Shown here piece after piece: positions 10,785-22,142 of a stretch of DNA of 64,000 nucleotides. The first letter of the stretch is position 1, and the number at the start of each line of letters is the position of its first letter. This DNA is from a candidate division WOR-3 bacterium (GTDB taxonomy: Bacteria > Hydrothermota > UBA3073): positions 26,065 through 90,064 of the forward strand of contig JAUWGP010000003.1 in NCBI GenBank assembly GCA_030606335.1, in the 5' to 3' direction. Under the pieces are notes generated by a model. The model did no database searches. It was given only the letters and a program-made list of their open reading frames with translations, and was not told the origin of the DNA. The position numbers and the translations under genes were made by a program.

Positions 10785-13133
10785 ATGGAAAAATTTAATA
10801 TGCATCTCAGCGAAGCAGATACAAGAGCAAAATTAATTGACCCCGCTCTCCATCTTTCTGGATGGACAGAAGACCTTGTAAGACGTGAAGAAACTGAGAG
10901 AGGTATTGATATTATAGATGGAAAACCACGCAGAAGAAGAAGGGGACGAATAGATTATATTCTACGCATTAAAGTTAATATTAACTCACAACCCATCGCA
11001 GTTGCTTTAATAGAAGCTAAGAAAAGCGATAACCCACCTGATAAAGGACTCGAACAAGCAAAGAAGTACGCAAGACTAAATAACGTACCTTTTGTATATT
11101 CTTCCAATGGTCATCTCTTTGTGGAATATGACAACTTTACAGGTAAAACTTCTCACCCGAATTCTTTAGAAAAGTTTCCTACACCATTTGAACTACGACA
11201 ACGCCATGAAAAAGGGATTGGTATTTCACTTGATAAAGAAAATGCAAAGCCACTTCTTATCCCGTATCCAGGAGGTGAAGCAAGCCGTCGTTATTATCAG
11301 GATGCAGCAATTCGTGCTACACTCGAGAAAATTATACAGGGAAAAAAACGGATGCTCCTATTCCTTGCTACAGGCTCCGGGAAAACCTTCATTGCGGTTC
11401 GTCTTTTGAAGAAGATTGCAGATGCTGGGCATTTACATCGTGCTTTATTTCTTTGTGACAGGGATGAACTCCGAAATCAGGGACTTTCAGCATATCAAAA
11501 TATTTTTGGTGCTGATGCTGCTCCTGTATCTACTGCAAATCCACAGAAAAACGCAAGAATTTTAATAGCAACATATCAAACTCTTAATGTAGCAGGCGAG
11601 AACGAAGATGCTAAATTCTTACTCGATAACTATCCTGAAAACTATTTCAGTCATATAATAATCGATGAATGCCATAGGAGTGCCTGGGGTAAATGGAGTA
11701 TCGTGCTAAAAAGAAATTCCGATGCAATTCAAATAGGACTTACAGCCACTCCACGTTACTGGGAGGGTGGTAGTAAGGAGGAAAAAAAAGTAGACAAAGA
11801 GATAACTGCTAACAACCTTCAATATTTTGGCGAACCAATTTACGAATACTCAATGTCACAAGGAATTGAAGATGGTTATCTCCCTGCTTGTGAGGTGATA
11901 AGACGCGATGTGAATCTCGATATAATAGGTGTCACACGAAATGATATTAAAGTATTGGGAGCAAGAGATGCTACAACAGGTAAGCAACTTACACCCGACG
12001 AAACCCGTGAGATATACGAAGCTACATCCTTTGAGGATATTATTCAATTGCCTGACAGAGTAGAAACAATGTGTAAAGACCTTTTTAAAATGTTCCTTCA
12101 AACGGGTGGACCTCACCAGAAGACAGTTATTTTTTGTGTGCGTGATACCCATGCAGATGCCATTGCCGCTGAAATAAATAATCTTTATGCTGAGTGGTGT
12201 GATAGAAATAAGCAAAAAAGATATGAGCCTTATGCATTCAAATGCACTGCTTCTGTGGGAGGAAGCAAATATATATCAGATTTGCGTAGCTTAGAGCGAA
12301 GTCATTTTATCGCTACTACAGTTGATTTAATAACTACAGGAGTTGATATACCAATATTACGTAATGTAGTATTCTTTAGATATATCCGTTCTCCAATATA
12401 CTTTCAACAAATGATGGGAAGGGGGTCAAGAATTCATCTTCCTACAAATAAATTGATGTTTCGGGTTTATGATTATACGGATGCTACAAGACTGTTAGGA
12501 GAAGAGTTTAAGTCAAAACCCTCACCCACACGAGAAAAAAAGGAAACAGAAGAGGGAGAAAAAGAAAGAATAATCCGAGTAGAAGGATTTGATGTTCGAA
12601 TTAATCCTGCCGGAACTTATATTGTCACTGAAAAAGAAGGAAGATTATCAATGGTTACAGTAGAGGAGTACAAGCAGACTATTGCAGAGCACTTGGTTGA
12701 AAATGTTAAAACATTAGACGATCTTCGTCATAGATGGATAAATCCTGAGGAACGTGGAGAGCTTATAGATTCCCTTCCCGAAGACGGACGAGGAATAAGA
12801 ATGCTGCAGGAACTTCTTAATCGAAAAGAATATGACCTTTATGATTTAATGGCAGAAATCGGGTTTGGTGTATCCCCTAAAAGTCGTGAGGAAAGAGTTG
12901 AAGCCCTTCAATATAAACATGCTGACTGGTTTAAACATTTACCCTCAGAAACAGCAAAAACATTGTTTGCACTTGCAAGGCAATTTGAAAGAGGCGGTAC
13001 TGAAGAATTAGAAAACCCGTATGTTTTCAATGCTCCTGATGTTGTTAAAGCGGGTGGACATCAAGCTTTAAAGGTGCTTGGTGGACCAAAAGACATTATT
13101 ATTGAGATGAAAAGGAGGTTATTTGCAGCCTGA
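10785..13133 (+). CDS. hsdR: Type I restriction enzyme R subunit (EcoEI-like size class)
   Basis: N-terminal HsdR signature MHLSEADTRAKLIDPALHLSGW; helicase motif I LATGSGKT and motif II IIIDECHRS; 782 aa. Confidence 0.9.
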   Translation: MEKFNMHLSEADTRAKLIDPALHLSGWTEDLVRREETERGIDIIDGKPRRRRRGRIDYILRIKVNINSQPIAVALIEAKKSDNPPDKGLEQAKKYARLNNVPFVYSSNGHLFVEYDNFTGKTSHPNSLEKFPTPFELRQRHEKGIGISLDKENAKPLLIPYPGGEASRRYYQDAAIRATLEKIIQGKKRMLLFLATGSGKTFIAVRLLKKIADAGHLHRALFLCDRDELRNQGLSAYQNIFGADAAPVSTANPQKNARILIATYQTLNVAGENEDAKFLLDNYPENYFSHIIIDECHRSAWGKWSIVLKRNSDAIQIGLTATPRYWEGGSKEEKKVDKEITANNLQYFGEPIYEYSMSQGIEDGYLPACEVIRRDVNLDIIGVTRNDIKVLGARDATTGKQLTPDETREIYEATSFEDIIQLPDRVETMCKDLFKMFLQTGGPHQKTVIFCVRDTHADAIAAEINNLYAEWCDRNKQKRYEPYAFKCTASVGGSKYISDLRSLERSHFIATTVDLITTGVDIPILRNVVFFRYIRSPIYFQQMMGRGSRIHLPTNKLMFRVYDYTDATRLLGEEFKSKPSPTREKKETEEGEKERIIRVEGFDVRINPAGTYIVTEKEGRLSMVTVEEYKQTIAEHLVENVKTLDDLRHRWINPEERGELIDSLPEDGRGIRMLQELLNRKEYDLYDLMAEIGFGVSPKSREERVEALQYKHADWFKHLPSETAKTLFALARQFERGGTEELENPYVFNAPDVVKAGGHQALKVLGGPKDIIIEMKRRLFAA

Positions 13134-14034
13134 AAAGGAGATATTTGATTTTCTTGTTGAAAATGCAATATACCCTATGATTAGTAAGAAGGGTAAGGTC
13201 TTCTTTAAATATCCGAAGAAAGGAATGTTAACTGAGGCTAAAGCAAGAGAAATTATTGAACAATTGGATATTAAGACCAGAAATGACTGCAAAAAATTAA
13301 GGGAAAAAATCAGAAACCTGAGATCTGCATTCAGAGAAAATCGTCCTATAAGCAAATGGATTAAAGAGGAAAGACCAAGGGAGATGCTGGTTAAATACGG
13401 TCCCGAGTTCCTCCCTTTATCAAAACTTCTTGCAATAATATTAAGGATAGGAAGGGAAGGAATAAGTGCAGAAGAACTATCAAAAAGGTTATTGAATAAG
13501 TTTGGTGCATTAAGGAAAATAGATACTGCAACAATTTCTGAGATACGTGAGATAGAAGGAATAGGTCTTGCAAAAGCAGCACAAATAAAAGCTGCACTTG
13601 AACTTGGTAAAAGGCTATATAAAGAAACTGCTGTAAGGAAGAGAAAGATAACAAAACCAGATGAACTTATTGAGTATGTAGCAGAATATTACGGTCCTTA
13701 TCTAAGGGACTCTGTTAAAGAGTTTTTTTATGTCATACTTCTGGATATAAAAAATAAACCTATTGATAACGTGGAAATAAGTAAGGGTAGTATAAATGCA
13801 AGTGTGGTAGATCCAAAGGATATTGTAAAAGAAGCAACTATACGGTCAGCCTCGTCAATAATTTTGGTTCATAATCATCCATCAGGTGAGACAGACCCAT
13901 CTGAAGAGGATAAAAGGTTAACAAAATCAATTATAGATGCCTGTGAACTCATTGATATAAAGGTATTAGACCATATAATCATTGGAAAAAATCAAGAAGA
14001 CTATTTTAGTTTCGTAAAGAACGGATTGATATAA
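13123..14034 (+). CDS. radC: RadC-like JAB/MPN-domain protein with an N-terminal extension
   Basis: ERPREMLVKYGPEFLPLSKLLAIILRIGREG, HhH motif IEGIGLAKAAQI, JAMM motif LVHNHPSGETDPSEEDKRLT. TTG start with AAGGAGG 5 nt upstream; overlaps the hsdR stop by 11 nt. Confidence 0.8.
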   Translation: MQPEKEIFDFLVENAIYPMISKKGKVFFKYPKKGMLTEAKAREIIEQLDIKTRNDCKKLREKIRNLRSAFRENRPISKWIKEERPREMLVKYGPEFLPLSKLLAIILRIGREGISAEELSKRLLNKFGALRKIDTATISEIREIEGIGLAKAAQIKAALELGKRLYKETAVRKRKITKPDELIEYVAEYYGPYLRDSVKEFFYVILLDIKNKPIDNVEISKGSINASVVDPKDIVKEATIRSASSIILVHNHPSGETDPSEEDKRLTKSIIDACELIDIKVLDHIIIGKNQEDYFSFVKNGLI

Positions 14035-14050
14035 TAGAGATTATTTTATT

Positions 14051-15526
14051 ATGAAAAAATATAAAATATTCGTAAGTGGCGTTCAGAGAGAGCTCAAAGA
14101 GGAGCGGTTTGCAGTAAAAGAAATCATCACTCTGAACACTTTTTTAAAGAAATACTTTGATGTCTTTCTTTTTGAGGACCTGCCAGCCAAAAGCAAGCCA
14201 GCAGAAAAGGTCTACCTTGGAAAAGTCTCGGAGAGTGATATCCTGCTATTGTTATTGGGAAAGGAGTATGGACAACCCAGTCCTGATGGTCTTTCAGCTA
14301 CAGAAAGGGAATTTAGAAAGGCTGTGGAACGGAATTTGAAAATCCTGGTTTTTTTGAGAGGAGAAGATGACTCTACCAGAGACAGGCGGGTTAGAAATCT
14401 TATACGGGAGATAAAAAGACCGGGCAGTGGATATACTTATGATGAATTTAATGGTACGTCCGATTTAAAAGAATGTGTTTTCAATAGTCTTGTAGAACTC
14501 CTGGAGGATGATGGTATTCTTGCCAGGCTCCCCTTCGATTCTACAATTTGTGAAGAAGCAACTTATGAAGACATAAATGAAGAACTGGTAGAGAACTTCC
14601 TGAAGTATAGAGCAATAAAACTAAAAGTGGAAGTTCCTGAAATACCCATAAGAGATTTCTTAGTAAAGACTATTAAAGCGGTCCGGGAATTAGACGGAAT
14701 CTTTAAGCTAACTAATGCAGCGATTCTTTTCTTTTGTGATTATCCTCAAGAATTCATTTCTCAAAGCAGTATAAAGATAGCAAGATACAGGGGGAATTCA
14801 AGGATAGAATTTATTGACTCACAGGAACTTACTGGTCCATTCTATAAAATAATTGATGATTTAGAGATATTCTTTAAAAGAAATACCCGATTAGCCAGCA
14901 AGATTGTGGAGTTTAAGAGAGTGGATATTCCCGAGTATCCCTTTGAGGCAATAAGAGAAGGAATAGTCAATGCAATGGCTCACAGAGATTATCTCCGCAT
15001 TGGTTCTAATATTCAGATGGATATCTTTAACGATAGAATAGAGGTCACCAGCCCCGGAGGACTTCTTCCAGGGTTGGACATTAAAAATCTGGAAGGGGTT
15101 CATGAGACGAGAAACAAAAGGATTTGCAAAATCTTTCACGAAACGAAAGATATGGAAAGATATGGGACTGGTATTACTAAAATGAAGAATTGGATGACAG
15201 AACACGGTTTGAAGCCGCCAGTAATAACTCAACCAGGTGATTTCTTCAGAATTAATTTTTATGGTCCGGGTGATAAGATATTAGATTTAGTTCCCAATAT
15301 ACCCGAAGAAAGACAAACAGATTTGAAAAAATTGGGCTTAAATAACAGACAAATAGAAGCATTAAGATTGATGGTAAATGAAGGGAAAGCCTTAACAAAC
15401 AGAAAATACAGAGAATTGTTTAACGTTAGCAATCAAACATTCGTTAGAGATATGCGACTACTGTCCAAGTTGGAATTTGTCACTTCCGAAGGTAAAGGTC
15501 GGTCTTTGCAATACAAAGCAAAATAA
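14051..15526 (+). CDS. DUF4062 / AlbA_2 (divergent AAA) / HATPase_c_4 protein with C-terminal HTH (Schlafen-like 'RecG-related' regulator family)
   Basis: N-terminus KIFVSGVQRELKEERFAVKEII...ILLLLLGKEYG matches the DUF4062 pattern. The middle has AIREGIVNAMAHRDYLRIGSNIQMDIFNDRIEVTSPGGLLPG (HATPase_c_4). The C-terminus has an HTH (NNRQIEALRLMVNEGKALTNRKYRELFNVSNQTFVRDMRLL). Confidence 0.6.
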   Translation: MKKYKIFVSGVQRELKEERFAVKEIITLNTFLKKYFDVFLFEDLPAKSKPAEKVYLGKVSESDILLLLLGKEYGQPSPDGLSATEREFRKAVERNLKILVFLRGEDDSTRDRRVRNLIREIKRPGSGYTYDEFNGTSDLKECVFNSLVELLEDDGILARLPFDSTICEEATYEDINEELVENFLKYRAIKLKVEVPEIPIRDFLVKTIKAVRELDGIFKLTNAAILFFCDYPQEFISQSSIKIARYRGNSRIEFIDSQELTGPFYKIIDDLEIFFKRNTRLASKIVEFKRVDIPEYPFEAIREGIVNAMAHRDYLRIGSNIQMDIFNDRIEVTSPGGLLPGLDIKNLEGVHETRNKRICKIFHETKDMERYGTGITKMKNWMTEHGLKPPVITQPGDFFRINFYGPGDKILDLVPNIPEERQTDLKKLGLNNRQIEALRLMVNEGKALTNRKYRELFNVSNQTFVRDMRLLSKLEFVTSEGKGRSLQYKAK

Positions 15527-15527
15527 C

Positions 15528-15700
15528 AATGTCACGAAACAAGTCCAAATGTCACGAGAATGTCATGAAAAAGCATGTCACGAAAAGTGAGAGAATGTCA
15601 CGGAATGCGTCACGAAAAAAGTATCCACAAAGGTGGAAAATTAATTTAAGAAATGTCCCTAAAAATTAAAAATGTCCTTAATAATGTCCGAAATCAGTAA
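15528..15700. repeat. array of about 9 degenerate AATGTCAC / AATGTCC motifs
   Basis: caATGTCACgaaa, aaATGTCACgag, aATGTCAtgaaa, gcATGTCACgaaa, gaATGTCACgga, gCGTCACgaaa, then aATGTCCct, aATGTCCtta, aATGTCCgaaa, irregularly spaced 12-21 nt apart. Confidence 0.5.
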
Positions 15701-15767
15701 TCCTAAGATAGAACTTCCAGCAGGCTGGCGATGGGTGAGACTGGGCAAGAAGATAGAAATTTATTGA
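15684..15767 (+). pseudogene. hsdS: hsdS N-terminal remnant (27 codons)
   Basis: Encodes MSEISNPKIELPAGWRWVRLGKKIEIY*, matching the N-terminus of the full hsdS (ILPPDWRWVKLGEVCEF); ctggcgatgggtga is shared at the nucleotide level. Confidence 0.5.
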
Positions 15768-15774
15768 TTTATAT

Positions 15775-16458
15775 GTGGAGGTGTCGTTAATGCTTAATCT
15801 ACAGAGAGGAATTCCAATCGAAGATGGAGATTTGTTTATCTTAGATACAAATCCATTCAGATTTTTGTATCTGGCAGCGGAAAGCCTAATCAAAGATGCA
15901 GAGCAAGCTGCAACCAAAAATAAGCATCGGGTTGAAATTAATCATTCTATTGGAGCACTTGTGGTGCTTCTTCTATCTACCGAAGCACTCATAAACAGAG
16001 TGTATGAGTGTTTCCTTAGAAGTAAATTCCCCAGACAGATATACGAAGAGATTATGGGTAAATGGTCTCTCACAATGAAATGGTATTTTGCTCCTCTGAT
16101 TTATAAATCTGGTGGTAACAATAAAACCTTTGATGTTAAAAAAGAACCCTGGCAATCTTTTTCTGAACTGAAAAAGATCAGGGATTATTTTGCTCACCCA
16201 AAGCCAGCCCAATTTCCCTTTACAGTATTAGATGCTAAAAAAAAGATCTTGGATGTTAATGAGGGCGTTATACCAAGATGGCCCCAAACAACAATTCCTA
16301 AAGACTTGAACCATTTTCGTTGGAAGGATGCTCAAACGGTTTTGGAAATTATTAATAAAATGATTGATAAATTAGACTCCTTCATGGGGGGAACAATCAA
16401 AAAGGACGATTGGTATTTAATAGAACAAATGAGTAAATATGAAAAAGCAGCTGAATAA
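15775..16458 (+). CDS. hypothetical protein embedded in the Type I RM locus
   Basis: About 222-227 aa. GGAGG at 15777-15781 precedes the ATG at 15790; the track ORF starts at GTG 15775. No recognisable motif. The 3' end overlaps the hsdS start by 20 nt. Confidence 0.5.
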   Translation: MEVSLMLNLQRGIPIEDGDLFILDTNPFRFLYLAAESLIKDAEQAATKNKHRVEINHSIGALVVLLLSTEALINRVYECFLRSKFPRQIYEEIMGKWSLTMKWYFAPLIYKSGGNNKTFDVKKEPWQSFSELKKIRDYFAHPKPAQFPFTVLDAKKKILDVNEGVIPRWPQTTIPKDLNHFRWKDAQTVLEIINKMIDKLDSFMGGTIKKDDWYLIEQMSKYEKAAE

Positions 16459-17581
16459 AGAAATACTTCCACCCGACTGGCGATGGGTGAAGTTGGGGGA
16501 AGTATGTGAGTTTGCGTATGGTTCAGGATTACCGGTACGAGATAGATTGAAGGGTCTCATTCCTGTATTTGGCTCAAACGGTGTTATTGGTTACCATAAC
16601 ATGGCAATTACTCAAAGTCCTACAATTATAATTGGTCGCAAGGGTTCAATTGGTCAAGTGAATTCTTCAGAATCTCCATGTTGGCCAATTGATACAACTT
16701 ACTACATTGACGAATCCAAAACCTCCTGTTATCTACATTGGCTGTACTGGTTACTTAAGTACCTGAGACTAGACGAACTTAATAAAGCGACTGGGGTGCC
16801 AGGTTTGAATCGTAATGACGCCTATAGTCAAGTTATCCCCCTCCCTCCTCTTTCTGAGCAGAAGCGCATCGCTGCAAAAATTAAGGAGTTAATGCAGGAG
16901 GTAGAACATGCCCGAACAGCCTGCGAAAAGCAATTAGAGGCAGCAAAAGCCCTTCCCTCCGCATATCTGCGAGAGGTCTTTAAAAGCGAAGATGCAAAGA
17001 AGTGGGAGAGTAAGAGGTTGGGAGAGGTTTGTGAGACTACAAGCGGAGGCACTCCATATAGAGGGAATAAAGAGTATTTTGACGGGGATATTCCCTGGGT
17101 GAAATCGGGAGAATTGGAAGACAATTACATCTATGACACGGAAGAGAAAATAACAGAATTAGGTCTTAAAAATTCTAGTGCTAAAATTTTGCCTATGGGA
17201 ACATTGTTAATTGCAATGTATGGAGCAACTGTTGGAAAGTTGGGGGTCTTGAATATTTCCGCTACTACTAATCAAGCTATTTGTGCCATTATTCCAAATT
17301 CCAAAGCCTCGACCAATTTTCTCTTTTTCTTTTTCATGCATTTTAGAAGAGACCTGGTCAATAAATCTTATGGAGGTGCTCAGCCAAATATCAGTCAAGA
17401 ACTAATAAAAGAAACACACATTCCTTTTCCGTCTATAAAAACCCAGCATCGTATTGCCGCTGAACTCAAAGAAAAAAAAGCAGAGGTAGATAAACTTCAC
17501 TCATCCATTGAAAGACAATTTGAAGCAATAAACGCCTTGCCACAGGCAATTTTAAGGAAGGCATTCATAGGGAAGTTGTGA
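16439..17581 (+). CDS. hsdS: Type I restriction-modification specificity subunit (two target-recognition domains)
   Basis: Two half-repeats, each starting with a conserved motif (LPPDWRWVKLGEVCEF / ESKRLGEVCETTSGGTP), each followed by a conserved coiled-coil spacer (LPPLSEQKRIAAKI..., FPSIKTQHRIAAEL...). Confidence 0.9.
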   Translation: MKKQLNKEILPPDWRWVKLGEVCEFAYGSGLPVRDRLKGLIPVFGSNGVIGYHNMAITQSPTIIIGRKGSIGQVNSSESPCWPIDTTYYIDESKTSCYLHWLYWLLKYLRLDELNKATGVPGLNRNDAYSQVIPLPPLSEQKRIAAKIKELMQEVEHARTACEKQLEAAKALPSAYLREVFKSEDAKKWESKRLGEVCETTSGGTPYRGNKEYFDGDIPWVKSGELEDNYIYDTEEKITELGLKNSSAKILPMGTLLIAMYGATVGKLGVLNISATTNQAICAIIPNSKASTNFLFFFFMHFRRDLVNKSYGGAQPNISQELIKETHIPFPSIKTQHRIAAELKEKKAEVDKLHSSIERQFEAINALPQAILRKAFIGKL

Positions 17582-17634: not shown

Positions 17635-18702
17635 ATGAATCTAAATAAACGGTCAAATAGCTTTTCCCAAGAAAATATTACTCGCATTACAGAATTCTTT
17701 AAAAATCAGCAACTTCCTGAACCTCATTTACATCTTTTTAAGAGTGTGGTTTGGAAGGGATATCGTTGGAGAGCAATTTGGAACACTCTCCATTATCGTC
17801 CACTTCATGAAACATTTCATGAATTTATCATATATATTTTGAAAGCAACTTTTGGTGAAAAATGGCGCAAAGAGCAGATGAATTTGTCTGAAGAAGAAAG
17901 ACATATTCTTATTCGCTGGGTTAAATCTTATGGTGAATGGAAAAAAGCTACTCATAATGATGAAAAGAAAGAAGGCGAGTATATCTATGGTGCTATCCCA
18001 AGTGGTGAAGTTATGGCACTCCATTCATTTGCTTATGATATATATTGCCTCCAAGTAGTCAATAAGTTACCAAACTTCTTAGTAAATAGACTGAAGAATA
18101 AAAATGAATTCCAAGGTGCAAGATATGAAATAGCTGTGGCTGCTATTATCGCTCGAGCGGGCTTTGCTATAACCTTCCTCGATGACAAGGTTAAAAGTCA
18201 AAAGCATTGTGAATTCGTCGCCAAGAATAAATATTCTGGGTTACAAATTGGAGTTGAAGCTAAAAGTCGAAGAAGGAAAGGTGTACTCCATGAAAAAGGA
18301 AATTTGAATTACTCTTCAGTTGTAAGAGGAGACATTGAGAACCTTTTTGAAAAGGCTCTTACTCAGAGGCCCAAGAACATGCCATATTTTATTTTCATCG
18401 ACTTGAATGTAATGCCTACCCCAGACCCAGAAATTCCCCCTGACAAAAAACCATGGTTTAAGGATATAAAATTGCTATTAGATAGATATGGGATACCTTC
18501 TAAAGAAAATCCAGATCCGTTTAATGCATTGGTGTTGACTAATTTTTCTTATTATTATTTGGGAAACTTACCTATTACTCATTTGGGAGAATACGGTCTA
18601 ATCATCTCTGAAATTCCAGAATACCCGTGCAAAGATATGCAGGCTATAAGTGAAATATGGGAAAGTTTAGGACGGTATTCTCATATTCCGAAAGATGTAT
18701 AA
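17635..18702 (+). CDS. hypothetical protein between hsdS and hsdM; possible PD-(D/E)xK-like nuclease core (inference)
   Basis: 355 aa with no P-loop. The segment ARYEIAVAAIIARAGFAITFLDDKVKSQKHCEFVAKNKYSGLQIGVEAKSRRRK fits a helix-E, strand-D, strand-ExK arrangement. Confidence 0.45.
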   Translation: MNLNKRSNSFSQENITRITEFFKNQQLPEPHLHLFKSVVWKGYRWRAIWNTLHYRPLHETFHEFIIYILKATFGEKWRKEQMNLSEEERHILIRWVKSYGEWKKATHNDEKKEGEYIYGAIPSGEVMALHSFAYDIYCLQVVNKLPNFLVNRLKNKNEFQGARYEIAVAAIIARAGFAITFLDDKVKSQKHCEFVAKNKYSGLQIGVEAKSRRRKGVLHEKGNLNYSSVVRGDIENLFEKALTQRPKNMPYFIFIDLNVMPTPDPEIPPDKKPWFKDIKLLLDRYGIPSKENPDPFNALVLTNFSYYYLGNLPITHLGEYGLIISEIPEYPCKDMQAISEIWESLGRYSHIPKDV

Positions 18703-18725
18703 CCTTATACCCTAAATTATCTTAT

Positions 18726-20231
18726 ATGCGAAAAAATTCTCACAAAATAACCACACCACAATCTCTGAATGCCTATATCAAGGGTATCTGTGATATTATG
18801 CGGAGGTCGGGAAGAGCTGGGGCTCTCCAGTATGTGCCTGAACTTACCTGGATGCTCTTCCTCCGTATTCTTGATGAAAAAGAGGAGATAGAAGTAGAAT
18901 ATACTAAAGCATTAGGTAGAGAATTTATTCCTTCACTCCAATATCCATATCGCTGGCGAGATTGGGCTGCTCCTGATGGAGAAAAAAGAAAGGAATTACA
19001 AGAGGGAACATTTGGAAGATTTATGAGCTTCGTCGATGGAGACCTGCTCCCTACCCTCAAAAAATTAAAGGATAAACCTGGTGCAACTCCTCGTCAGAAG
19101 GTTGTCAGTCAAGTCTTCTCCTCTTTTGAAAAAACGGGTATTGATACCGAACGCAATCTTTTAGATATACTTGATAAAATTCATGAACTCTCCTTGGAGC
19201 AAGTTGAAGAAACCCACATGTTCACACTCTCCCAGGTCTATGAGGGACTGATACAGAAAATGGGTGAGAAAAACAACGACGGTGGACAGTTTTTCACACC
19301 AAGAGAGGTTATTCGTGTTATGGTTAAAGTGATTGACCCGAAGATTGGAGAAACCGTTTATGACCCCTGCTGTGGAACGGGTGGGTTTCTGGCTCAGGCA
19401 TATCTACATATGAATAAAAATGCAACAATAGCAGATGACATTGAAACCCTCAAGATTAGAACCTTCTACGGTAGAGAGAAAGAAAATCTTGTTTACCCCA
19501 TTGTCCTTGCAAATCTCGTGCTTCATGAGATAGATGAACCACATATATGGCATGGCAACACGCTAACAGGTCATGAGGTTTATGGTGGACTTTTCCAAAG
19601 TGCACCCGTCCTCTTTGATGTAGTCCTCACTAATCCTCCCTTTGGTGGTAAAGAGGGAAAAGATGCTCGGACTCATTTTGCCTATAAAACCAGCTCTACA
19701 CAGGTATTGTTCTTGCAACATGTCATTGATAACCTTAAAAATAGTGGCAGGTGTGGAATCGTAATGGATGAAGGTGTTTTATTCCGCACAAATGAGAAAG
19801 CCTTTGTCCAGACTAAACGCAAACTCTTGAGTGAGTGCAACCTCTATTGTATTGTAAGTCTTCCTCCCAAGGTATTCCTTAATGCTGGTGCAGCAAGTAA
19901 AACCAATCTACTTTTTTTCACTAAAGGTGAACAAACTAAAGAAATATGGTATTATGACCTATCTGATTTAAATGTAACAAAAAGGCAGCCCTTAACTATG
20001 CATCACTTTGAGGAGTTCTTTAAATTATTACCAGAAAAAAAAGAAAGTGAGCATTCCTGGAAGGTTCCAATAGAAGAAATAGAAGAGAAAAATTACGACA
20101 TAAAAGCAGTAAATCCAAACAGAAAAATCGAGGAAGACACAAGAAGCCCGCAAGAGCTATTAGCAATTATTGAGTCCCAGCAAAAAGAAATCACAAACGC
20201 ATTATCAAAATTGAAAGATAAAGGCTTGTGA
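18726..20231 (+). CDS. hsdM: Type I restriction-modification N6-adenine DNA methyltransferase subunit
   Basis: HsdM N-domain (GALQYVPELTWMLFLRILDEKEE), GTGGFL SAM-binding motif, NPPFGG catalytic motif. The start is taken at the ATG at 18726, after the stop of the upstream gene. Confidence 0.9.
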   Translation: MRKNSHKITTPQSLNAYIKGICDIMRRSGRAGALQYVPELTWMLFLRILDEKEEIEVEYTKALGREFIPSLQYPYRWRDWAAPDGEKRKELQEGTFGRFMSFVDGDLLPTLKKLKDKPGATPRQKVVSQVFSSFEKTGIDTERNLLDILDKIHELSLEQVEETHMFTLSQVYEGLIQKMGEKNNDGGQFFTPREVIRVMVKVIDPKIGETVYDPCCGTGGFLAQAYLHMNKNATIADDIETLKIRTFYGREKENLVYPIVLANLVLHEIDEPHIWHGNTLTGHEVYGGLFQSAPVLFDVVLTNPPFGGKEGKDARTHFAYKTSSTQVLFLQHVIDNLKNSGRCGIVMDEGVLFRTNEKAFVQTKRKLLSECNLYCIVSLPPKVFLNAGAASKTNLLFFTKGEQTKEIWYYDLSDLNVTKRQPLTMHHFEEFFKLLPEKKESEHSWKVPIEEIEEKNYDIKAVNPNRKIEEDTRSPQELLAIIESQQKEITNALSKLKDKGL

Positions 20232-20239
20232 GATATAAT

Positions 20240-20451
20240 ATGATAAAATCTAACCCTTTCACTCCAAAGTCTGGTTTGGAGCAGAAAATCTTTTTCAATA
20301 GGGAAGATGAGATAAAATTGCCGATATTGAGATAAAAAGTTTGAATGTTTATCTTCGTAGGTTGGTAGAGAAAGAAATCTTAATTGGTGTTAGGCGTGGC
20401 GAATATAAATTAAAAGACATTCTATTGTGTGAATACCTGAGAAGAAAATAA
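20240..20451 (+). pseudogene. degraded remnant of an AAA-type (PF01637-like) ATPase gene
   Basis: Frame A encodes MIKSNPFTPKSGLEQKIFFNREDEIKLPILR*, the characteristic NPF.P...FxxREDEI N-terminus of 'archaeal-type' ATPases. A second frame at 20353-20451 encodes LRRLVEKEILIGVRRGEYKLKDILLCEYLRRK*, a wHTH-like C-terminus. The body of the gene is missing. Confidence 0.3.
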
Positions 20452-20812: not shown

Positions 20813-21859
20813 ATGTTTAAACCAAAATTCACAATCACCAATAAAATAAACAATTTCCTTCTTGAAATTGAGAGGGCAAGAGGATTTTTGGAGGCGGCAA
20901 AGTTAAAGGAGGCATGGATAAAGGATATGCAAAGTGAAGCACTTATCCTTGAAGCGCACCACTCTACACATATTGAAGGAACTCAACTGACCTTATCCCA
21001 GGCTCAAAGAATTCTTACCGGCAAATCTGTAAAGGGCATTAGGAAAGATGATCGTCAAGAACTCCTGAACTATAAAGAGGCAACTGATTTTGTCTCCGAA
21101 TACCTGGGGAAGAAATTAGAAATCACGGAGGATTTAATTAAGCAGATACACAAGATTTTAGTTAAAGATGTCAGGGGTGGAACCCTTGAGCCAGGAAGAT
21201 ATAGAAAAGTTCAGAATTATGTAGTCAACTCCTTGACAAGAGCAATAATTTATATTCCGCCCCCTCCAGAGGAAGTTCCTAAACTAATGAAAGAATTCGT
21301 TGAATGGTTAAACGTAAAAAAGAAGATATCACCTGTGCTCATGGCAGGGATCAGTCAATATCAGTTTGTTGACATTCATCCCTTCTTAGATGGAAACGGA
21401 AGGACTGCTCGTGTTTTATGTACGCTCATTCTTTATCAGAATGAATATGATTTTAAAAGGCTTTTTTCATTGTCCGAATATTACGACAAAAAACGCCGGA
21501 GGTACTACGACGCCATTCAATCAGTGAGAGAGAATAATATAGATATGACAGAATGGCTCGAATATTTTACAGAAGGACTGAAAAATCAATTGATAGAAGT
21601 AAAAACAAAGGGAGAAAAGGCAATTAAAAAGGAAGTTCTCATTGAGAAGGCTAAAAGATTTAACTTAAACGAGCGTCAACAGAAAATTTTATTACATTTA
21701 TTGGAGCAAAAGCGGATTTCGGTTGAGGAAATCAGACAGAAATATAATTTGGTTAGAAGAACGATTCAACGTGATTTCTCAAAATTGGTTGAGTTAGGTC
21801 TAATAAAGGAAATAGCAAAAAGCAAGACAGACCCTACAAGGTATTATGAATTACTGTGA
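20813..21859 (+). CDS. fic: Fic/DOC family protein (AMPylator-type) with C-terminal winged-helix domain
   Basis: Canonical Fic motif HPFLDGNGRTARVL; 348 aa. Confidence 0.9.
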   Translation: MFKPKFTITNKINNFLLEIERARGFLEAAKLKEAWIKDMQSEALILEAHHSTHIEGTQLTLSQAQRILTGKSVKGIRKDDRQELLNYKEATDFVSEYLGKKLEITEDLIKQIHKILVKDVRGGTLEPGRYRKVQNYVVNSLTRAIIYIPPPPEEVPKLMKEFVEWLNVKKKISPVLMAGISQYQFVDIHPFLDGNGRTARVLCTLILYQNEYDFKRLFSLSEYYDKKRRRYYDAIQSVRENNIDMTEWLEYFTEGLKNQLIEVKTKGEKAIKKEVLIEKAKRFNLNERQQKILLHLLEQKRISVEEIRQKYNLVRRTIQRDFSKLVELGLIKEIAKSKTDPTRYYELL

Positions 21860-21903
21860 CATTTTACTGCGACAATACTGTGACATTTACTGTGACATAA
21901 TTA
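21857..21903. repeat. 4 tandem CTGTGACAT units (12-13 nt period)
   Basis: ctgtgacatttta ctgcgacaata ctgtgacattta ctgtgacataatt immediately after the fic stop. The core GTGACAT is the reverse complement of the ATGTCAC array at 15528-15700. Confidence 0.5.
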
Positions 21904-21973
21904 TTGAGGTCGGGAGACCTCTCCCACAAAGTTTGTATTGGGAGAAATGGGGGTCAGGCTAATGGAGAAATGG

Positions 21974-22142
21974 GGGTCAGGCTAAGAGATAAGAAATAGA
22001 AAATAATCTCACTACTTTGCCACGAAATATCAGATGATAAAAATCTCCTTCATATTCTATCCTCAGTTTCCTGGCATATTTTTATTTTACTATAACTTTC
22101 CCTCTATCTCAAGCAATTATCTCTTATCTTTTAGCCTGACCC
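21974..22142. repeat. about 170 bp MITE-like element, copy 1 (24-nt terminal inverted repeats gggtcaggctaagagataagaaat / atctcttatcttttagcctgaccc)
   Basis: The TIRs are perfect reverse complements over about 20 nt. The interior is near-identical to 24808-24978. A partial extra TIR copy sits at 21942-21964. Confidence 0.6.

What the first reader, a model, noticed from the sequence alone, without database searches (positions are those of the whole stretch)
14051..15526. DUF4062 plus Schlafen-like AlbA_2/HATPase_c_4 plus HTH protein embedded in the RM operon
DUF4062 is an N-terminal module recurrent in defence-island NTPases. The AlbA_2/HATPase_c_4 core is the bacterial Schlafen-like 'RecG-related' module often annotated as a transcriptional regulator. 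The gene is in operon position between hsdR and hsdS and is immediately followed by an array of ATGTCAC motifs. These could be binding sites for its C-terminal HTH. The architecture suggests a sensor or regulator of the island, or an independent defence effector.
Basis: partly seen in the sequence, partly recalled or inferred. Interest (0 to 1): 0.6.

Follow-up and report, generated by a model that had tools for sequence, protein, structure and literature searches.

The report
Defence NADase tethered to DNA array
A gene inside a restriction-modification operon encodes a likely NAD-destroying anti-phage enzyme whose DNA-binding tail appears to dock onto six short repeats placed right after its own stop codon, and this gene-plus-docking-site layout recurs in hundreds of relatives and in two other toxin families without, as far as I could find, having been described.

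Summary
The ORF (14051-15526, 491 aa), its DUF4062 and HATPase_c_4 domains, its C-terminal winged helix, its hsdR-radC-X-hsdS-hsdM position and the ATGTCAC array are all real. The AlbA_2/Schlafen domain is not there. In relatives that have it, AlbA_2 sits where DUF4062 sits here. The protein is therefore a TIR-like NADase effector (DUF4062/NIR, catalytic Glu E85 kept) mounted on the GHKL-ATPase + wHTH chassis of 'Schlatpase' proteins.

The main result concerns the array. 49 of 57 related loci carry direct repeats starting within about 13 nt of the stop codon, with a fixed geometry (0, +20, +32, usually duplicated). The repeat sequence differs between loci. It tracks the recognition helix and wing of the wHTH (partial Mantel r = 0.58, 0/2000 permutations) and not the rest of the protein. 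Sites are conserved and spacers are not. No site lies in the gene's own promoter region. Fic-wHTH toxins, including the one at 20813-21859, and canonical Schlafen-GHKL-wHTH proteins show the same arrangement.

Best reading: an autonomous single-gene abortive-infection effector that binds a cognate cis array. I infer that the array parks or pre-assembles the toxin. Binding is strongly supported. The role of binding is inferred.

The parts
14051..15526 (+). Gene X: 491-aa DUF4062(NIR)-GHKL-wHTH protein
   Evidence: ORF list, translation, Pfam. 830 homologues with E<=1e-5 among the scored candidates; the listed 120 are almost all about 491 aa. AF2 model, mean pLDDT 82.
14051..14515 (+). N-terminal DUF4062/NIR TIR-like domain (aa 1-155), predicted catalytic Glu E85 in the 'SATE' motif
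14528..15265 (+). GHKL (Bergerat-fold) ATPase region (aa 160-405), including Pfam HATPase_c_4 at aa 318-403; Mg-ATP residues E303 and N307
15332..15523 (+). C-terminal LNxRQ-type winged helix-turn-helix (aa 428-491); recognition helix aa 461-473, wing aa 477-490
15529..15617 (+). Primary array: six direct 11-nt sites (ATGTCACGAAA consensus) starting at 15529, 15549, 15560, 15575, 15595 and 15607; spacing 20/11/15/20/12; first site 2 nt after the stop codon
   Evidence: Sequence, motif search, repeat finder, geometry. The same motif follows every one of the 7 loci that encode the 'SNQTFVRDM' recognition helix.
15653..15694 (+). Second array: three sites ATGTCC(C/T/G) at 15653, 15672 and 15684 (spacing 19/12). 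This class goes with other HTH types (NEKTARRD / KKTA(L/I)RD). It is probably the relic of an earlier HTH+array module.
   Evidence: Sequence, D6. The same class is the primary array in L004, L026, L032, L039, L042 and L051. It sits just before hsdS in L001, L002, L013, L016 and L062.
10785..13133 (+). hsdR (type I restriction subunit), first gene of the operon
   Evidence: Pfam ResIII, EcoEI_R_C, HSDR_N.
13123..14034 (+). RadC-like JAB protein, conserved neighbour between hsdR and gene X in close relatives
   Evidence: Pfam RadC E 6e-40, NCBIfam. The order hsdR-radC-X is seen in L001-L003, L005, L006, L008 and L009.
15711..15767 (+). Orphan hsdS 5' stub (ELPAGWRWVRLGKKIEIY*) directly after the arrays
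   Evidence: Read from the sequence. It matches the N-terminus of the intact HsdS and the hsdS starts that follow the arrays in L001-L003, L009 and L010.
16439..17581 (+). hsdS (intact)
   Evidence: Pfam Methylase_S, two stretches; translation.
18657..20231 (+). hsdM
   Evidence: Pfam N6_Mtase, HsdM_N.
20813..21859 (+). Fic-wHTH (SoFic-like) toxin gene with the same type of C-terminal LNxRQ wHTH
   Evidence: Pfam Fic, Fic_N, HTH_DeoR. PADLOC SoFic 1.7e-71. The C-terminal HMM built from family X hits it at 3.9e-9.
21852..21898 (+). Fic array: four sites TACTG(T/C)GACA(T/A) at 21852, 21865, 21876 and 21888. The first site overlaps the last codons and the TGA stop.
   Evidence: Sequence. Arrays of the same kind occur in 19 of 24 Fic relatives with >=50% identity.

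Best explanation
Gene X is an autonomous single-gene anti-phage (abortive-infection type) effector that happens to sit inside a type I RM operon. It has three modules.

(1) An N-terminal DUF4062/NIR domain, a TIR-like NAD+ hydrolase, is the toxic output.
(2) A GHKL ATPase is the same module that drives ATP-dependent oligomerisation in Schlafen-GHKL ('Schlatpase') proteins. Here it has lost the Schlafen nuclease and gained the NADase, which is an effector swap.
(3) A C-terminal winged helix reads an 11-nt motif.

Six copies of that motif, arranged as two triplets at 0/+20/+32, start 2 nt after the gene's stop codon. The protein docks on this array in cis, probably as it is made, because the wHTH is the last part to be translated.

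Inferred step. The array holds a defined small oligomer of the toxin at its own locus in an inactive, pre-assembled state. This resembles the scaffolded inactive filament of SLFN-pAgo. Infection-linked events, such as loss or remodelling of host DNA or a trigger sensed through the GHKL module, would release or rearrange it. ATP-driven oligomerisation would then switch on NAD+ depletion.

The wHTH-plus-array pair behaves as an exchangeable specificity cassette. It has diversified into many orthogonal pairs, as would be expected if sharing a specificity between co-resident toxins were harmful.

Status of each step. Shown here: the domain identities, the conservation of catalytic residues, the existence, geometry and conservation of the arrays, and the HTH-motif covariation. 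Inferred: physical binding, cis loading, parking or autoinhibition, NADase activity, and defence.

For: Effector swap. AlbA_2 lies at aa 3-129 of relatives whose remainder aligns to aa 160-491 of X.

Array. 49 of 57 DUF4062-type loci have a [20,12] triplet and 33 have two. The first site starts -1 to +13 nt from the stop in 56 of 57. A triplet detector scores >=24/27 after 47.5% of the 80 ORFs that carry this wHTH, against 0.06% of 1632 other ORFs. Within one motif class, sites are 79-87% identical between loci, while spacers are 34-46% identical.

Covariation. Partial Mantel r(motif, HTH | backbone) = 0.58, with 0 of 2000 permutations reaching it. Motif against backbone gives r about 0, and HTH against backbone gives r about -0.04. 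The association is confined to aa 446-491. It peaks on one face of the recognition helix (N461, Q462, V465, R466, R469) and on the wing, while positions F464, M468 and L471, which I take to be buried from the helical periodicity, show about 0.

Autonomy. The gene and array also occur outside RM operons next to unrelated genes.

Generality. Fic-wHTH toxins and canonical SLFN-GHKL-wHTH proteins show the same arrangement. So do cultured examples in Rhodothermus marinus pRMAR01 and a Streptococcus dysgalactiae plasmid.

Analogy for a scaffolded inactive state and an ATP-driven active oligomer: SLFN-pAgo.
Against: No binding, NADase or defence experiment exists for this protein. The wHTH codons and the array are adjacent, so co-inheritance by recombination contributes to the covariation. 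The helical periodicity and the site-versus-spacer contrast argue against pure linkage but do not exclude it. An array can hold only six protomers per chromosome copy, so parking requires very low expression, which I could not assess. In Swarozyc, templated oligomerisation on a phage portal activates DUF4062, which would predict activation rather than inhibition on a template. The related wHTH-Fic enzyme SoFic is reported to bind its own promoter, and that paper cites CccR as a transcriptional autoregulator (10.64898/2026.07.09.737422), so a purely regulatory role is plausible. The window protein has N327 where 42 of 44 relatives have D, in the conserved FDDR motif near the ATP site. A Legionella plasmid DUF4062-GHKL protein with a different wHTH (Fic-like_C) has no array, so the array is not needed by every member of this architecture.
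Confidence: 0.55

Rival explanations
1. The protein is chiefly a transcription factor. By binding the array between its own gene and hsdS/hsdM, it acts as an operator-bound repressor or roadblock that tunes expression of the downstream methylase and specificity genes (a 'controller' for the RM operon) or its own mRNA 3' end. The enzymatic domains would serve as sensors.
For: The array lies in the only intergenic space before hsdS in RM-embedded loci. The wHTH-Fic enzyme SoFic binds its own promoter, and that paper cites CccR as a transcriptional autoregulator. RptR represses a type I RM island through three direct repeats. Intrinsic terminators are rare after the arrays, 4 of 44, so a protein roadblock could matter.
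Against: The motif is essentially never found upstream of the gene itself. The array travels with gene X rather than with RM genes: 31 of 47 full-length loci have no RM genes nearby, and the downstream genes there are unrelated housekeeping genes. The catalytic residues of a toxic NADase and of the ATPase are invariant, which is unnecessary for a mere regulator. Promoter-like consensus sites are not enriched in 13000-16600 and none lies in the array.
Confidence: 0.2
2. The array is an activating scaffold. Six protomers brought together on DNA form the active NADase assembly, as the phage portal does for Swarozyc. Access to the array or ATP loading would be the regulated step.
For: DUF4062 in KpSwz is activated by templated assembly of its wHTH-like AUX domains around a 12/13-mer portal. 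The strictly conserved multi-site geometry suggests a defined higher-order complex.
Against: The template is permanently present next to the gene. Activation by it would deplete NAD+ constitutively unless further controls exist, and nothing in the sequence points to such a control. In the closest mechanistic relative with the same GHKL module (SLFN-pAgo), the nucleic-acid-scaffolded filament is the inactive state.
Confidence: 0.12
3. The repeats are not protein-binding sites. They would be by-products of the recombination that shuffles 3' gene ends, or transcript (3' UTR) elements, and they co-vary with the HTH only because they are physically linked.
For: HTH and array are adjacent and are clearly exchanged together. 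Stacks of several different arrays in one locus look like recombination history. The repeats are all on the coding strand and would be transcribed.
Against: Motifs are kept at 79-87% identity across loci whose proteins are only 54-87% identical to the window protein, while the spacers between them are not kept. All six copies carry the same motif in each locus. The spacing is fixed at 20/12 regardless of sequence. The covariation is concentrated on the DNA-facing positions of the recognition helix and on the wing. Rfam finds no RNA family.
Confidence: 0.06
4. One reading: a Schlafen-like (AlbA_2) nuclease/ATPase regulator.
For: The GHKL + wHTH part is homologous to that of genuine Schlafen-GHKL-wHTH proteins, at 31-44% identity.
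Against: No AlbA_2 domain is found by Pfam at E<=10, and there is no Ex4(E/D)xK motif. DUF4062 occupies the position that AlbA_2 has in those relatives.
Confidence: 0.02

Closest known systems
Swarozyc (KpSwz), Evangelion (Eva01), and NIR effectors of Avs/Vulcan/Vesta: DUF4062 TIR-like NADase defence proteins (2026 preprints)
   Same: The N-terminal DUF4062 domain matches above Pfam threshold. The profile matches the KpSwz structure at E 1e-11. The catalytic Glu is conserved. The logic is a single gene with an effector plus an auxiliary region. KpSwz's auxiliary domain is also a winged-helix fold.
   Different: The auxiliary part here is a GHKL ATPase plus a sequence-specific DNA-binding wHTH, with a cognate array encoded next to the gene. 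KpSwz AUX binds a phage portal protein. None of the three papers mentions a GHKL/HATPase_c_4 or DNA-array variant in its text.
'Schlatpase' proteins: SLFN_AlbA_2 + GHKL (PF13749), with or without a C-terminal HTH. This includes COG2865, pSlfn HisKinase-HTH, PDB 3LMM and SLFN-pAgo RzAgo.
   Same: The GHKL and wHTH parts are homologous (31-44% identity to L059-L080; 3LMM is the best fold hit). The E-x3-N ATP-site motif is kept. They occur in type I RM operons (noted for Schlatpase in 10.64898/2026.05.29.728809). Canonical members also carry downstream arrays.
   Different: The Schlafen nuclease domain is absent and is replaced by DUF4062. The downstream arrays and their covariation with the HTH are not mentioned in the Schlafen papers I searched.
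wHTH-Fic enzymes SoFic / CccR
   Same: A toxic enzyme is fused to a C-terminal wHTH that binds DNA near its own gene. The window's own Fic gene has the same LNxRQ wHTH type as X and its own array.
   Different: SoFic is reported to bind the 100 bp upstream of its start codon, and CccR is cited there as a transcriptional autoregulator. Here the sites are exclusively downstream, abutting or overlapping the stop codon.
RptR repressor of type I RM defence islands (PMC12255303)
   Same: A DNA-binding protein associated with type I RM islands that recognises three short direct repeats.
   Different: RptR is a small four-helix repressor with no enzymatic domain. Its repeats overlap the island promoter, contain a palindrome (TAGCTA), and are conserved rather than diversified.
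Cis-linked site arrays of plasmid maintenance proteins: sopB-sopC, parB-parS, and RepA-CIS-ori of IncFII plasmids (from my own knowledge, not tested here)
   Same: The gene for a DNA-binding protein is followed directly by an array of its own binding sites. Specificities diversify into incompatibility-like groups. RepA acts preferentially in cis on sites downstream of its gene.
   Different: There is no partition ATPase or replication origin in the unit. The bound protein is a toxin/effector. The sites are 11 nt long in a 20/12 triplet geometry.

Membership tests
DUF4062 / NIR TIR-like NADase effectors | Match to Pfam PF13271 above the gathering score | tested here: met
   65.8 bits against a cut-off of 24.7, aa 5-91.
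DUF4062 / NIR TIR-like NADase effectors | Conserved catalytic glutamate (KpSwz E97, PsAvs2 E108, Eva01 E87) | tested here: met
   The family profile aligns 'SATE' (E85) with KpSwz 'SFTE'. My own count places that Glu at chain residue 82, which corresponds to E97 of the full-length protein if the deposited chain starts near residue 15. E85 is present in 44/44 family members.
DUF4062 / NIR TIR-like NADase effectors | TIR / nucleoside-deoxyribosyltransferase-like fold | tested here: met
DUF4062 / NIR TIR-like NADase effectors | NAD+ hydrolysis and phage defence that depends on the Glu | not testable with these tools
   Needs biochemistry and phage assays.
Swarozyc (specific system) | KpSwz-type AUX domain that recognises a phage portal | tested here: not met
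   The profile match to 10wc covers only aa 2-168. The remainder of the protein is GHKL + wHTH.
Prokaryotic Schlafen (pSlfn) / Schlatpase | SLFN_AlbA_2 nuclease domain with the Ex4(E/D)xK active-site motif | tested here: not met
   No PF04326 hit at E<=10. The motif is absent from the sequence. Relatives carry AlbA_2 at aa 3-129, where X has DUF4062.
Prokaryotic Schlafen (pSlfn) / Schlatpase | GHKL ATPase (PF13749) with Mg-ATP residues in an E-x3-N motif | tested here: met
   PF13749, E 2e-23. E303 and N307 are invariant and have the same E-x3-N spacing as RzAgo E314/N318; the equivalence is inferred from motif spacing, not from an alignment with RzAgo.
Prokaryotic Schlafen (pSlfn) / Schlatpase | Optional short C-terminal HTH | tested here: met
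Type I restriction-modification system (as a subunit) | Homology to HsdR, HsdM or HsdS | tested here: not met
   No such Pfam or NCBIfam match. The gene also occurs without RM genes.
Autoregulatory repressor-operator pairs (C proteins, RptR, SoFic/CccR type) | Binding sites in or overlapping the promoter of the regulated gene | tested here: not met
   The motif is absent upstream of the gene in nearly all loci, and the array is always 3' of the stop codon. No promoter-like site lies within the array.
Iteron / centromere-like cis arrays (ParB-parS, SopB-sopC, RepA-ori) | An array of direct repeats adjacent to the gene of its binding protein, with co-varying specificity | tested here: met
Iteron / centromere-like cis arrays (ParB-parS, SopB-sopC, RepA-ori) | Partner partition NTPase or a replication origin in the unit | tested here: not met
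   The neighbours are heterogeneous, and no ParA or Rep protein recurs among the 25 most frequent families of 94 neighbouring proteins.

The most novel reading that the evidence does not exclude
A short DNA array encoded immediately after the stop codon acts as a cis 'DNA antitoxin/scaffold' for single-gene abortive-infection toxins. The toxin's C-terminal wHTH is captured on the array as it is made and is held there in a defined, inactive oligomer. The wHTH-array pairs have diversified into many orthogonal specificities, like plasmid incompatibility groups, and are swapped as cassettes between at least three unrelated effector types: the DUF4062 NADase, the Schlafen tRNase and the Fic AMPylase. 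If true, this would be a general and so far undescribed layer of control in prokaryotic immunity.
Probability: 0.3. Interest if true: 0.9.

Novelty: new variant of a known kind. Interest (0 to 1): 0.72.

Why it matters
DUF4062/NIR NADases and bacterial Schlafens were recognised as immune effectors only in 2025-2026, and how most of them are kept silent is unknown. This locus shows that the NADase can be mounted on the Schlafen family's GHKL-wHTH chassis. It also shows that this chassis, and an unrelated Fic toxin, come with a built-in cognate DNA array of fixed geometry.

That gives a directly testable handle on regulation: add, remove or swap the array. It provides a natural data set of about 20 helix-motif pairs for a wHTH recognition code. 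It offers an explanation for the many 'predicted HTH transcriptional regulator / RecG-like helicase' annotations in RM operons. If the array controls toxicity, cloning such genes without their 3' flank would give misleading phenotypes in defence-system screens.

Tried and rejected
1. AlbA_2/Schlafen domain. I searched with Pfam at E<=10 on the whole protein and on aa 150-320 alone. It is absent, so I rejected it.

2. Phage-borne decoy arrays. I scanned IMG/VR for ATGTCAYG-N12-13-ATGTCAYG-N3-5-ATGTCAYG. The 9 hits are mostly GC-rich repeats with no adjacent wHTH-terminated gene. I read two of them (L083, L089) as lying inside a replication-type ORF, but ran no domain search on them. One short AT-rich contig (L084) could not be interpreted. 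This gives no support.

3. Sites in the gene's own promoter. Exact motif searches across all loci found essentially none upstream, so the classical autoregulation model is not supported.

4. Terminators after the arrays. A strict hairpin + T-run scan found them in only 4 of 44 loci. This is uninformative for these phyla.

5. Rfam on the whole window found no family.

6. Phage records. Only the GHKL part has distant relatives, such as mycobacteriophage Squirty gp31 and Gordonia phages. No DUF4062 version was found.

7. EcSofic 'AS1'. I wanted to test whether the 47-codon ORF downstream of E. coli SoFic that neutralises its toxicity (PMC12249575) is really an array. This remains an untested lead.

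8. PADLOC, NCBIfam and PHROGs gave no named system for X beyond the partial matches.

9. The neighbourhood of non-RM loci showed no conserved partner gene. I therefore rejected a multi-gene system.
Full report
**What is at the coordinates**

The window holds an ORF at 14051-15526 (+) of 491 aa. Pfam finds DUF4062 at aa 5-91 (E 4e-18) and HATPase_c_4 at aa 318-403 (E 2e-23). The flanking genes are as follows:
- hsdR, 10785-13133
- a RadC-like JAB gene, 13123-14034
- an ORF with no family match, 15775-16458
- hsdS, 16439-17581
- another ORF with no family match, 17635-18702
- hsdM, 18657-20231
- a SoFic-like Fic-wHTH gene, 20813-21859

Directly after its stop codon lie six direct repeats of consensus ATGTCACGAAA, starting at 15529, 15549, 15560, 15575, 15595 and 15607. 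The window as a whole has 12 exact ATGTCAC against 6.5 expected. Four of them lie within 73 nt here, and three more lie within 43 nt just after the Fic gene.

**What is not there**

No AlbA_2/Schlafen domain is detected, even at E<=10 and even when aa 150-320 are scanned alone. The more distant homologues fetched from genomes (L059-L080) match only aa 160-491 of this protein. Their N-termini carry textbook SLFN_AlbA_2 domains at aa 3-129, with the 'GESETLEFK' active-site motif. In the window protein, DUF4062 occupies exactly that position. The architecture is therefore DUF4062 - GHKL ATPase - wHTH. This is an effector swap on the chassis that a 2026 preprint named 'Schlatpase' (SLFN + PF13749 GHKL ATPase, often with a C-terminal HTH, sometimes in type I RM operons).

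**Domain functions**

Three 2026 preprints show that DUF4062 is a TIR-like NAD+ hydrolase used as an abortive-infection effector (Swarozyc, Evangelion, NIR in Avs/Vulcan/Vesta). A catalytic Glu is essential for defence.
- A profile of the present family hits the solved KpSwz DUF4062 structure at E 1e-11, and 'SATE' (E85) aligns to KpSwz 'SFTE'. E85 is present in 44/44 family members.
- In the GHKL part, E303 and N307 have the same E-x3-N spacing as the Mg-ATP ligands E314/N318 of RzAgo, where ATP binding drives tetramerisation. I infer the equivalence from motif spacing, not from an alignment with RzAgo. Both residues are invariant.
- The window protein and its closest relative have N327 where 42 of 44 have D. 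The significance is unknown.

**The family and its contexts**

The protein search returned 830 homologues at E<=1e-5 among the scored candidates. The 120 listed are nearly all about 491 aa, are 55-100% identical, and come from WOR-3, Cloacimonadota, Caldisericota, Omnitrophota, Nitrospirota, Elusimicrobiota, Methanobacteria and other lineages. This implies frequent horizontal transfer.

Of 47 full-length genomic loci, 16 have HsdR/S/M homologues nearby. Most relatives with >=62% identity share the order hsdR-(radC)-X-hsdS-hsdM. The other 31 loci lie among unrelated neighbours: YhcG nucleases, AAA_14/DUF4143, HEPN, AbiEii-like proteins, integrases and housekeeping genes. No partner recurs. X therefore behaves as an autonomous single-gene unit that often, but not always, lodges in RM operons.

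**The array is a family-wide feature**

Printing the 200 nt after each homologue's stop codon showed that almost every one is followed by an array. The repeated word differs between loci: ATGTCAYGAAA, ATGTCCGAAAT, ATGTCCCTAAAA, TTACACGATTA, TGGCGCATAAA, TGGTGCATAGA, TGGCTCGATTT, ATGTCGGATAA, ATTACCGAAATA, TCGAGCGATT, TGCAGCATAAA and others.

The geometry, in contrast, is constant. Site starts fall at 0, +20 and +32, and usually a second triplet follows 14-17 nt later. 49 of 57 loci have at least one such triplet and 33 have two. In 56 of 57 the first site begins -1 to +13 nt from the stop codon.

A simple triplet detector scores >=24/27 after 47.5% of the 80 ORFs that end in this wHTH module, against 1 of 1632 other ORFs in the same loci. 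Within one motif class, sites are 79-87% identical between loci whose proteins are only 54-87% identical to the window protein. The spacers between sites are 34-46% identical. The sites and their spacing are thus under selection, and the spacer sequence is not.

**Covariation with the wHTH**

Sorting loci by motif sorts them by recognition helix:
- 'SNQTFVRDM' goes with ATGTCAYGAAA (7 of 7 loci, including the window)
- 'SRRTALRDL' goes with TGGCGCATAA
- 'TNKTAATDL' goes with TTACACGATT
- 'NEKTARRD' goes with ATGTCCGAAAT
- 'TDKTAR(M/T)D' goes with ATTACCGAAATA
- 'SRNTASRHL' goes with TGGTGCATAG

Across 44 non-redundant loci, motif distance correlates with distance in aa 446-486 after controlling for the rest of the protein. 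The partial Mantel r is 0.58, and 0 of 2000 permutations reach it. Motif against backbone gives r about 0, and wHTH against backbone gives r about -0.04. The wHTH and its array are therefore exchanged together, independently of the enzyme body.

Column by column, the association is confined to the last 45 residues. It peaks at N461, Q462, V465, R466 and R469 (one face of helix 3), at N450 and R454, and at the wing 482-488. Positions F464, M468 and L471, which I take to be buried from the helical periodicity, show none. That periodicity is what direct base reading predicts. Mere linkage would not produce it. Physical binding is still an inference.

**Where the sites are not**

The motif of each locus is essentially absent from the region upstream of its own gene and from the rest of the 20-kb loci. 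In the window no promoter-like site lies in the array. A good sigma-70-like match lies at 13952-13979, 72 nt before the start codon. Intrinsic terminators follow the arrays in only 4 of 44 loci. The arrangement is therefore not the usual repressor-operator layout.

**Extra arrays**

The window has a second triplet of a different class: ATGTCC(C/T/G) at 15653, 15672 and 15684. No matching wHTH is encoded nearby. Several loci stack up to four arrays of different classes. The array next to the stop codon is always the one that matches the resident helix. The ATGTCC class commonly lies last, just before hsdS. I read these stacks as a record of successive wHTH+array replacements. This is an inference, and cross-talk with paralogues elsewhere in the genome is not excluded.

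**Generality beyond this family**

An HMM of the C-terminal module also hits the window's Fic protein. Its stop codon is embedded in the first of four TACTG(T/C)GACA(T/A) sites, at 21852-21898. I fetched 80 Fic loci from metagenomes.
- 19 of the 24 relatives with >=50% identity and the same wHTH type have 3-5 sites starting at or over the stop codon, with 10-13-nt spacing.
- The motif again tracks the wHTH, here mainly the wing: '..TDPT(R/K)(H/Y)Y' goes with CTGTGACA, 'EGATN(R/Q)L.YR' goes with TTGCGACA, and 'SIKRTATRDL' goes with AAGGGACA.
- None of the 40 more distant Fic proteins with other tails has such an array.

Canonical Schlafen-GHKL-wHTH proteins also carry arrays, often as 10-11-nt tandem units. 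Cultured examples are Rhodothermus marinus pRMAR01 (ATTGGGCAA x5 overlapping the stop, followed by an hsdS-like start) and a Streptococcus dysgalactiae plasmid (about 20 copies of CAGTAGGATA). A Legionella plasmid protein with DUF4062-GHKL but a different wHTH (Fic-like_C) has no array. The array therefore goes with the LNxRQ-type wHTH module and not with any one enzyme.

**Mechanism**

Shown here: a probable NADase effector and an intact GHKL ATP site on one polypeptide, with a sequence-specific wHTH whose cognate sites are conserved in a fixed 3+3 geometry next to the gene.

Inferred, step by step:
- The protein binds the array. It probably does so in cis as it is completed, because the wHTH is the last part translated and the array starts at the stop codon.
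- The bound complex is a storage form. My main reasons are that the template is always present, so it cannot be the alarm signal, and that in SLFN-pAgo, which shares the GHKL module, the nucleic-acid-scaffolded filament is the inactive state while the ATP-dependent tetramer is the active one.
- Release or rearrangement during infection would allow ATP-driven oligomerisation and NAD+ depletion.

The diversification of orthogonal helix-motif pairs is what one expects if two toxins competing for one array were harmful, as with plasmid incompatibility. It could also reflect counter-measures by phages. I found no phage decoy arrays.

The chief rival is a purely regulatory role, as a roadblock or operator for hsdS/hsdM or for mRNA 3' ends. 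Reported promoter binding by SoFic supports it. The portability of the unit outside RM operons and the invariant catalytic residues weaken it. An activating-scaffold model on the Swarozyc pattern is possible, but it needs an extra, unseen control.

**Comparison with the literature**

I searched the held library for DUF4062, COG2865, HATPase_c_4, Schlatpase, bacterial Schlafen, SoFic, and combinations with direct repeats. Within the DUF4062 and Schlafen papers I also searched for GHKL, HTH and DNA-binding terms, and within the Nat Microbiol Schlafen paper (PMC13056530) for repeats as well. None describes the DUF4062-GHKL-wHTH architecture in its text, and none describes stop-codon-proximal cognate arrays.

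One possibly related observation is a 47-codon ORF ('AS1') downstream of E. coli SoFic that neutralises its toxicity, although no protein could be purified. Whether that DNA holds wHTH sites could not be checked here.

**Verdict**

The protein is a new architectural variant of known effector families, not a Schlafen. The conserved, co-varying cis array shared by three toxin families is, as far as I could find, undescribed and readily testable.

Noticed in passing
window 20813-21898: The SoFic-like Fic-wHTH gene ends inside the first of four TACTG(T/C)GACA(T/A) repeats (21852, 21865, 21876, 21888). In 80 metagenome loci, 19 of 24 close relatives have such arrays at the stop codon, with motifs that track the wHTH wing.
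   Followed up: yes
window 15653-15694: A second triplet array, ATGTCC(C/T/G) with spacing 19/12, belongs to a class cognate to other HTH types. No matching HTH is encoded in the window. The same class sits just before hsdS in several related loci. It may be a fossil of an earlier wHTH+array module.
   Followed up: partly
window 15711-15767 and 15775-16458: An orphan hsdS 5' stub (ELPAGWRWVRLGKKIEIY*) precedes a 227-aa ORF with no hit in Pfam, NCBIfam, PADLOC or PHROGs. The intact hsdS starts only at 16439 with a similar N-terminus (…LPPDWRWVKLGE). This looks like a cassette inserted by recombination at the hsdS 5' end.
   Followed up: partly
window 17635-18702: A 355-aa ORF between hsdS and hsdM has no match in Pfam, NCBIfam, PADLOC or PHROGs.
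   Followed up: no
window 13123-14034: The RadC-like JAB protein is 303 aa if read from the TTG start (the RadC models match from about aa 84). It overlaps the hsdR stop and is conserved between hsdR and gene X in close relatives. In L033 and L040 a RadC gene lies just downstream of X instead.
   Followed up: partly
window 21941-21985 and about 22131-22142: A tandem duplicate GGAGAAATGGGGGTCAGGCTAA occurs twice just after the Fic array. An inverted partner (TTAGCCTGACCC) lies about 150 nt further on. It is unexplained.
   Followed up: no
window 20240-20450: Short broken reading frames follow hsdM. By eye, one stretch resembles the C-terminal winged-helix tail of an ATPase. It looks like a decayed gene, but I did not analyse it.
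   Followed up: no
window 13952-13979: A strong sigma-70-like match (TTGATA-16-TATAAT, 11/12) lies inside the radC 3' end, 72 nt before the start of gene X. It could give X its own promoter within the operon.
   Followed up: no
window 15029-15031 (codon 327 of gene X): The window protein and L001 have Asn where 42 of 44 relatives have Asp, in the conserved 'FDDRIE' motif of the GHKL domain. The effect on ATP binding is unknown.
   Followed up: no
L171 2233-2285 (Rhodothermus marinus DSM 4252 pRMAR01); L172 about 2500-2700 (Streptococcus dysgalactiae plasmid): Cultured organisms carry GHKL-wHTH genes followed by arrays. In R. marinus, ATTGGGCAA x5 overlaps the stop codon and precedes an hsdS-like start. 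In S. dysgalactiae, about 20 tandem CAGTAGGATA units follow the gene.
   Followed up: partly
L090 4001-5572 (Legionella pneumophila conjugative plasmid): A DUF4062-HATPase_c_4 protein has a different C-terminal wHTH (Fic-like_C, PF21247) and no downstream array. It lies next to ParB genes.
   Followed up: partly
literature, PMC12249575: A 47-codon ORF 'AS1' downstream of E. coli SoFic neutralises its toxicity in either cloning position, yet no AS1 protein or complex could be purified. It is worth testing whether the DNA rather than a peptide is the active agent.
   Followed up: no
L001 6179-6700: Upstream of hsdR in the closest related locus lies a C-terminal wHTH gene fragment, followed by two arrays and another hsdS-like start. 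This suggests repeated recombination at array/hsdS junctions.
   Followed up: no
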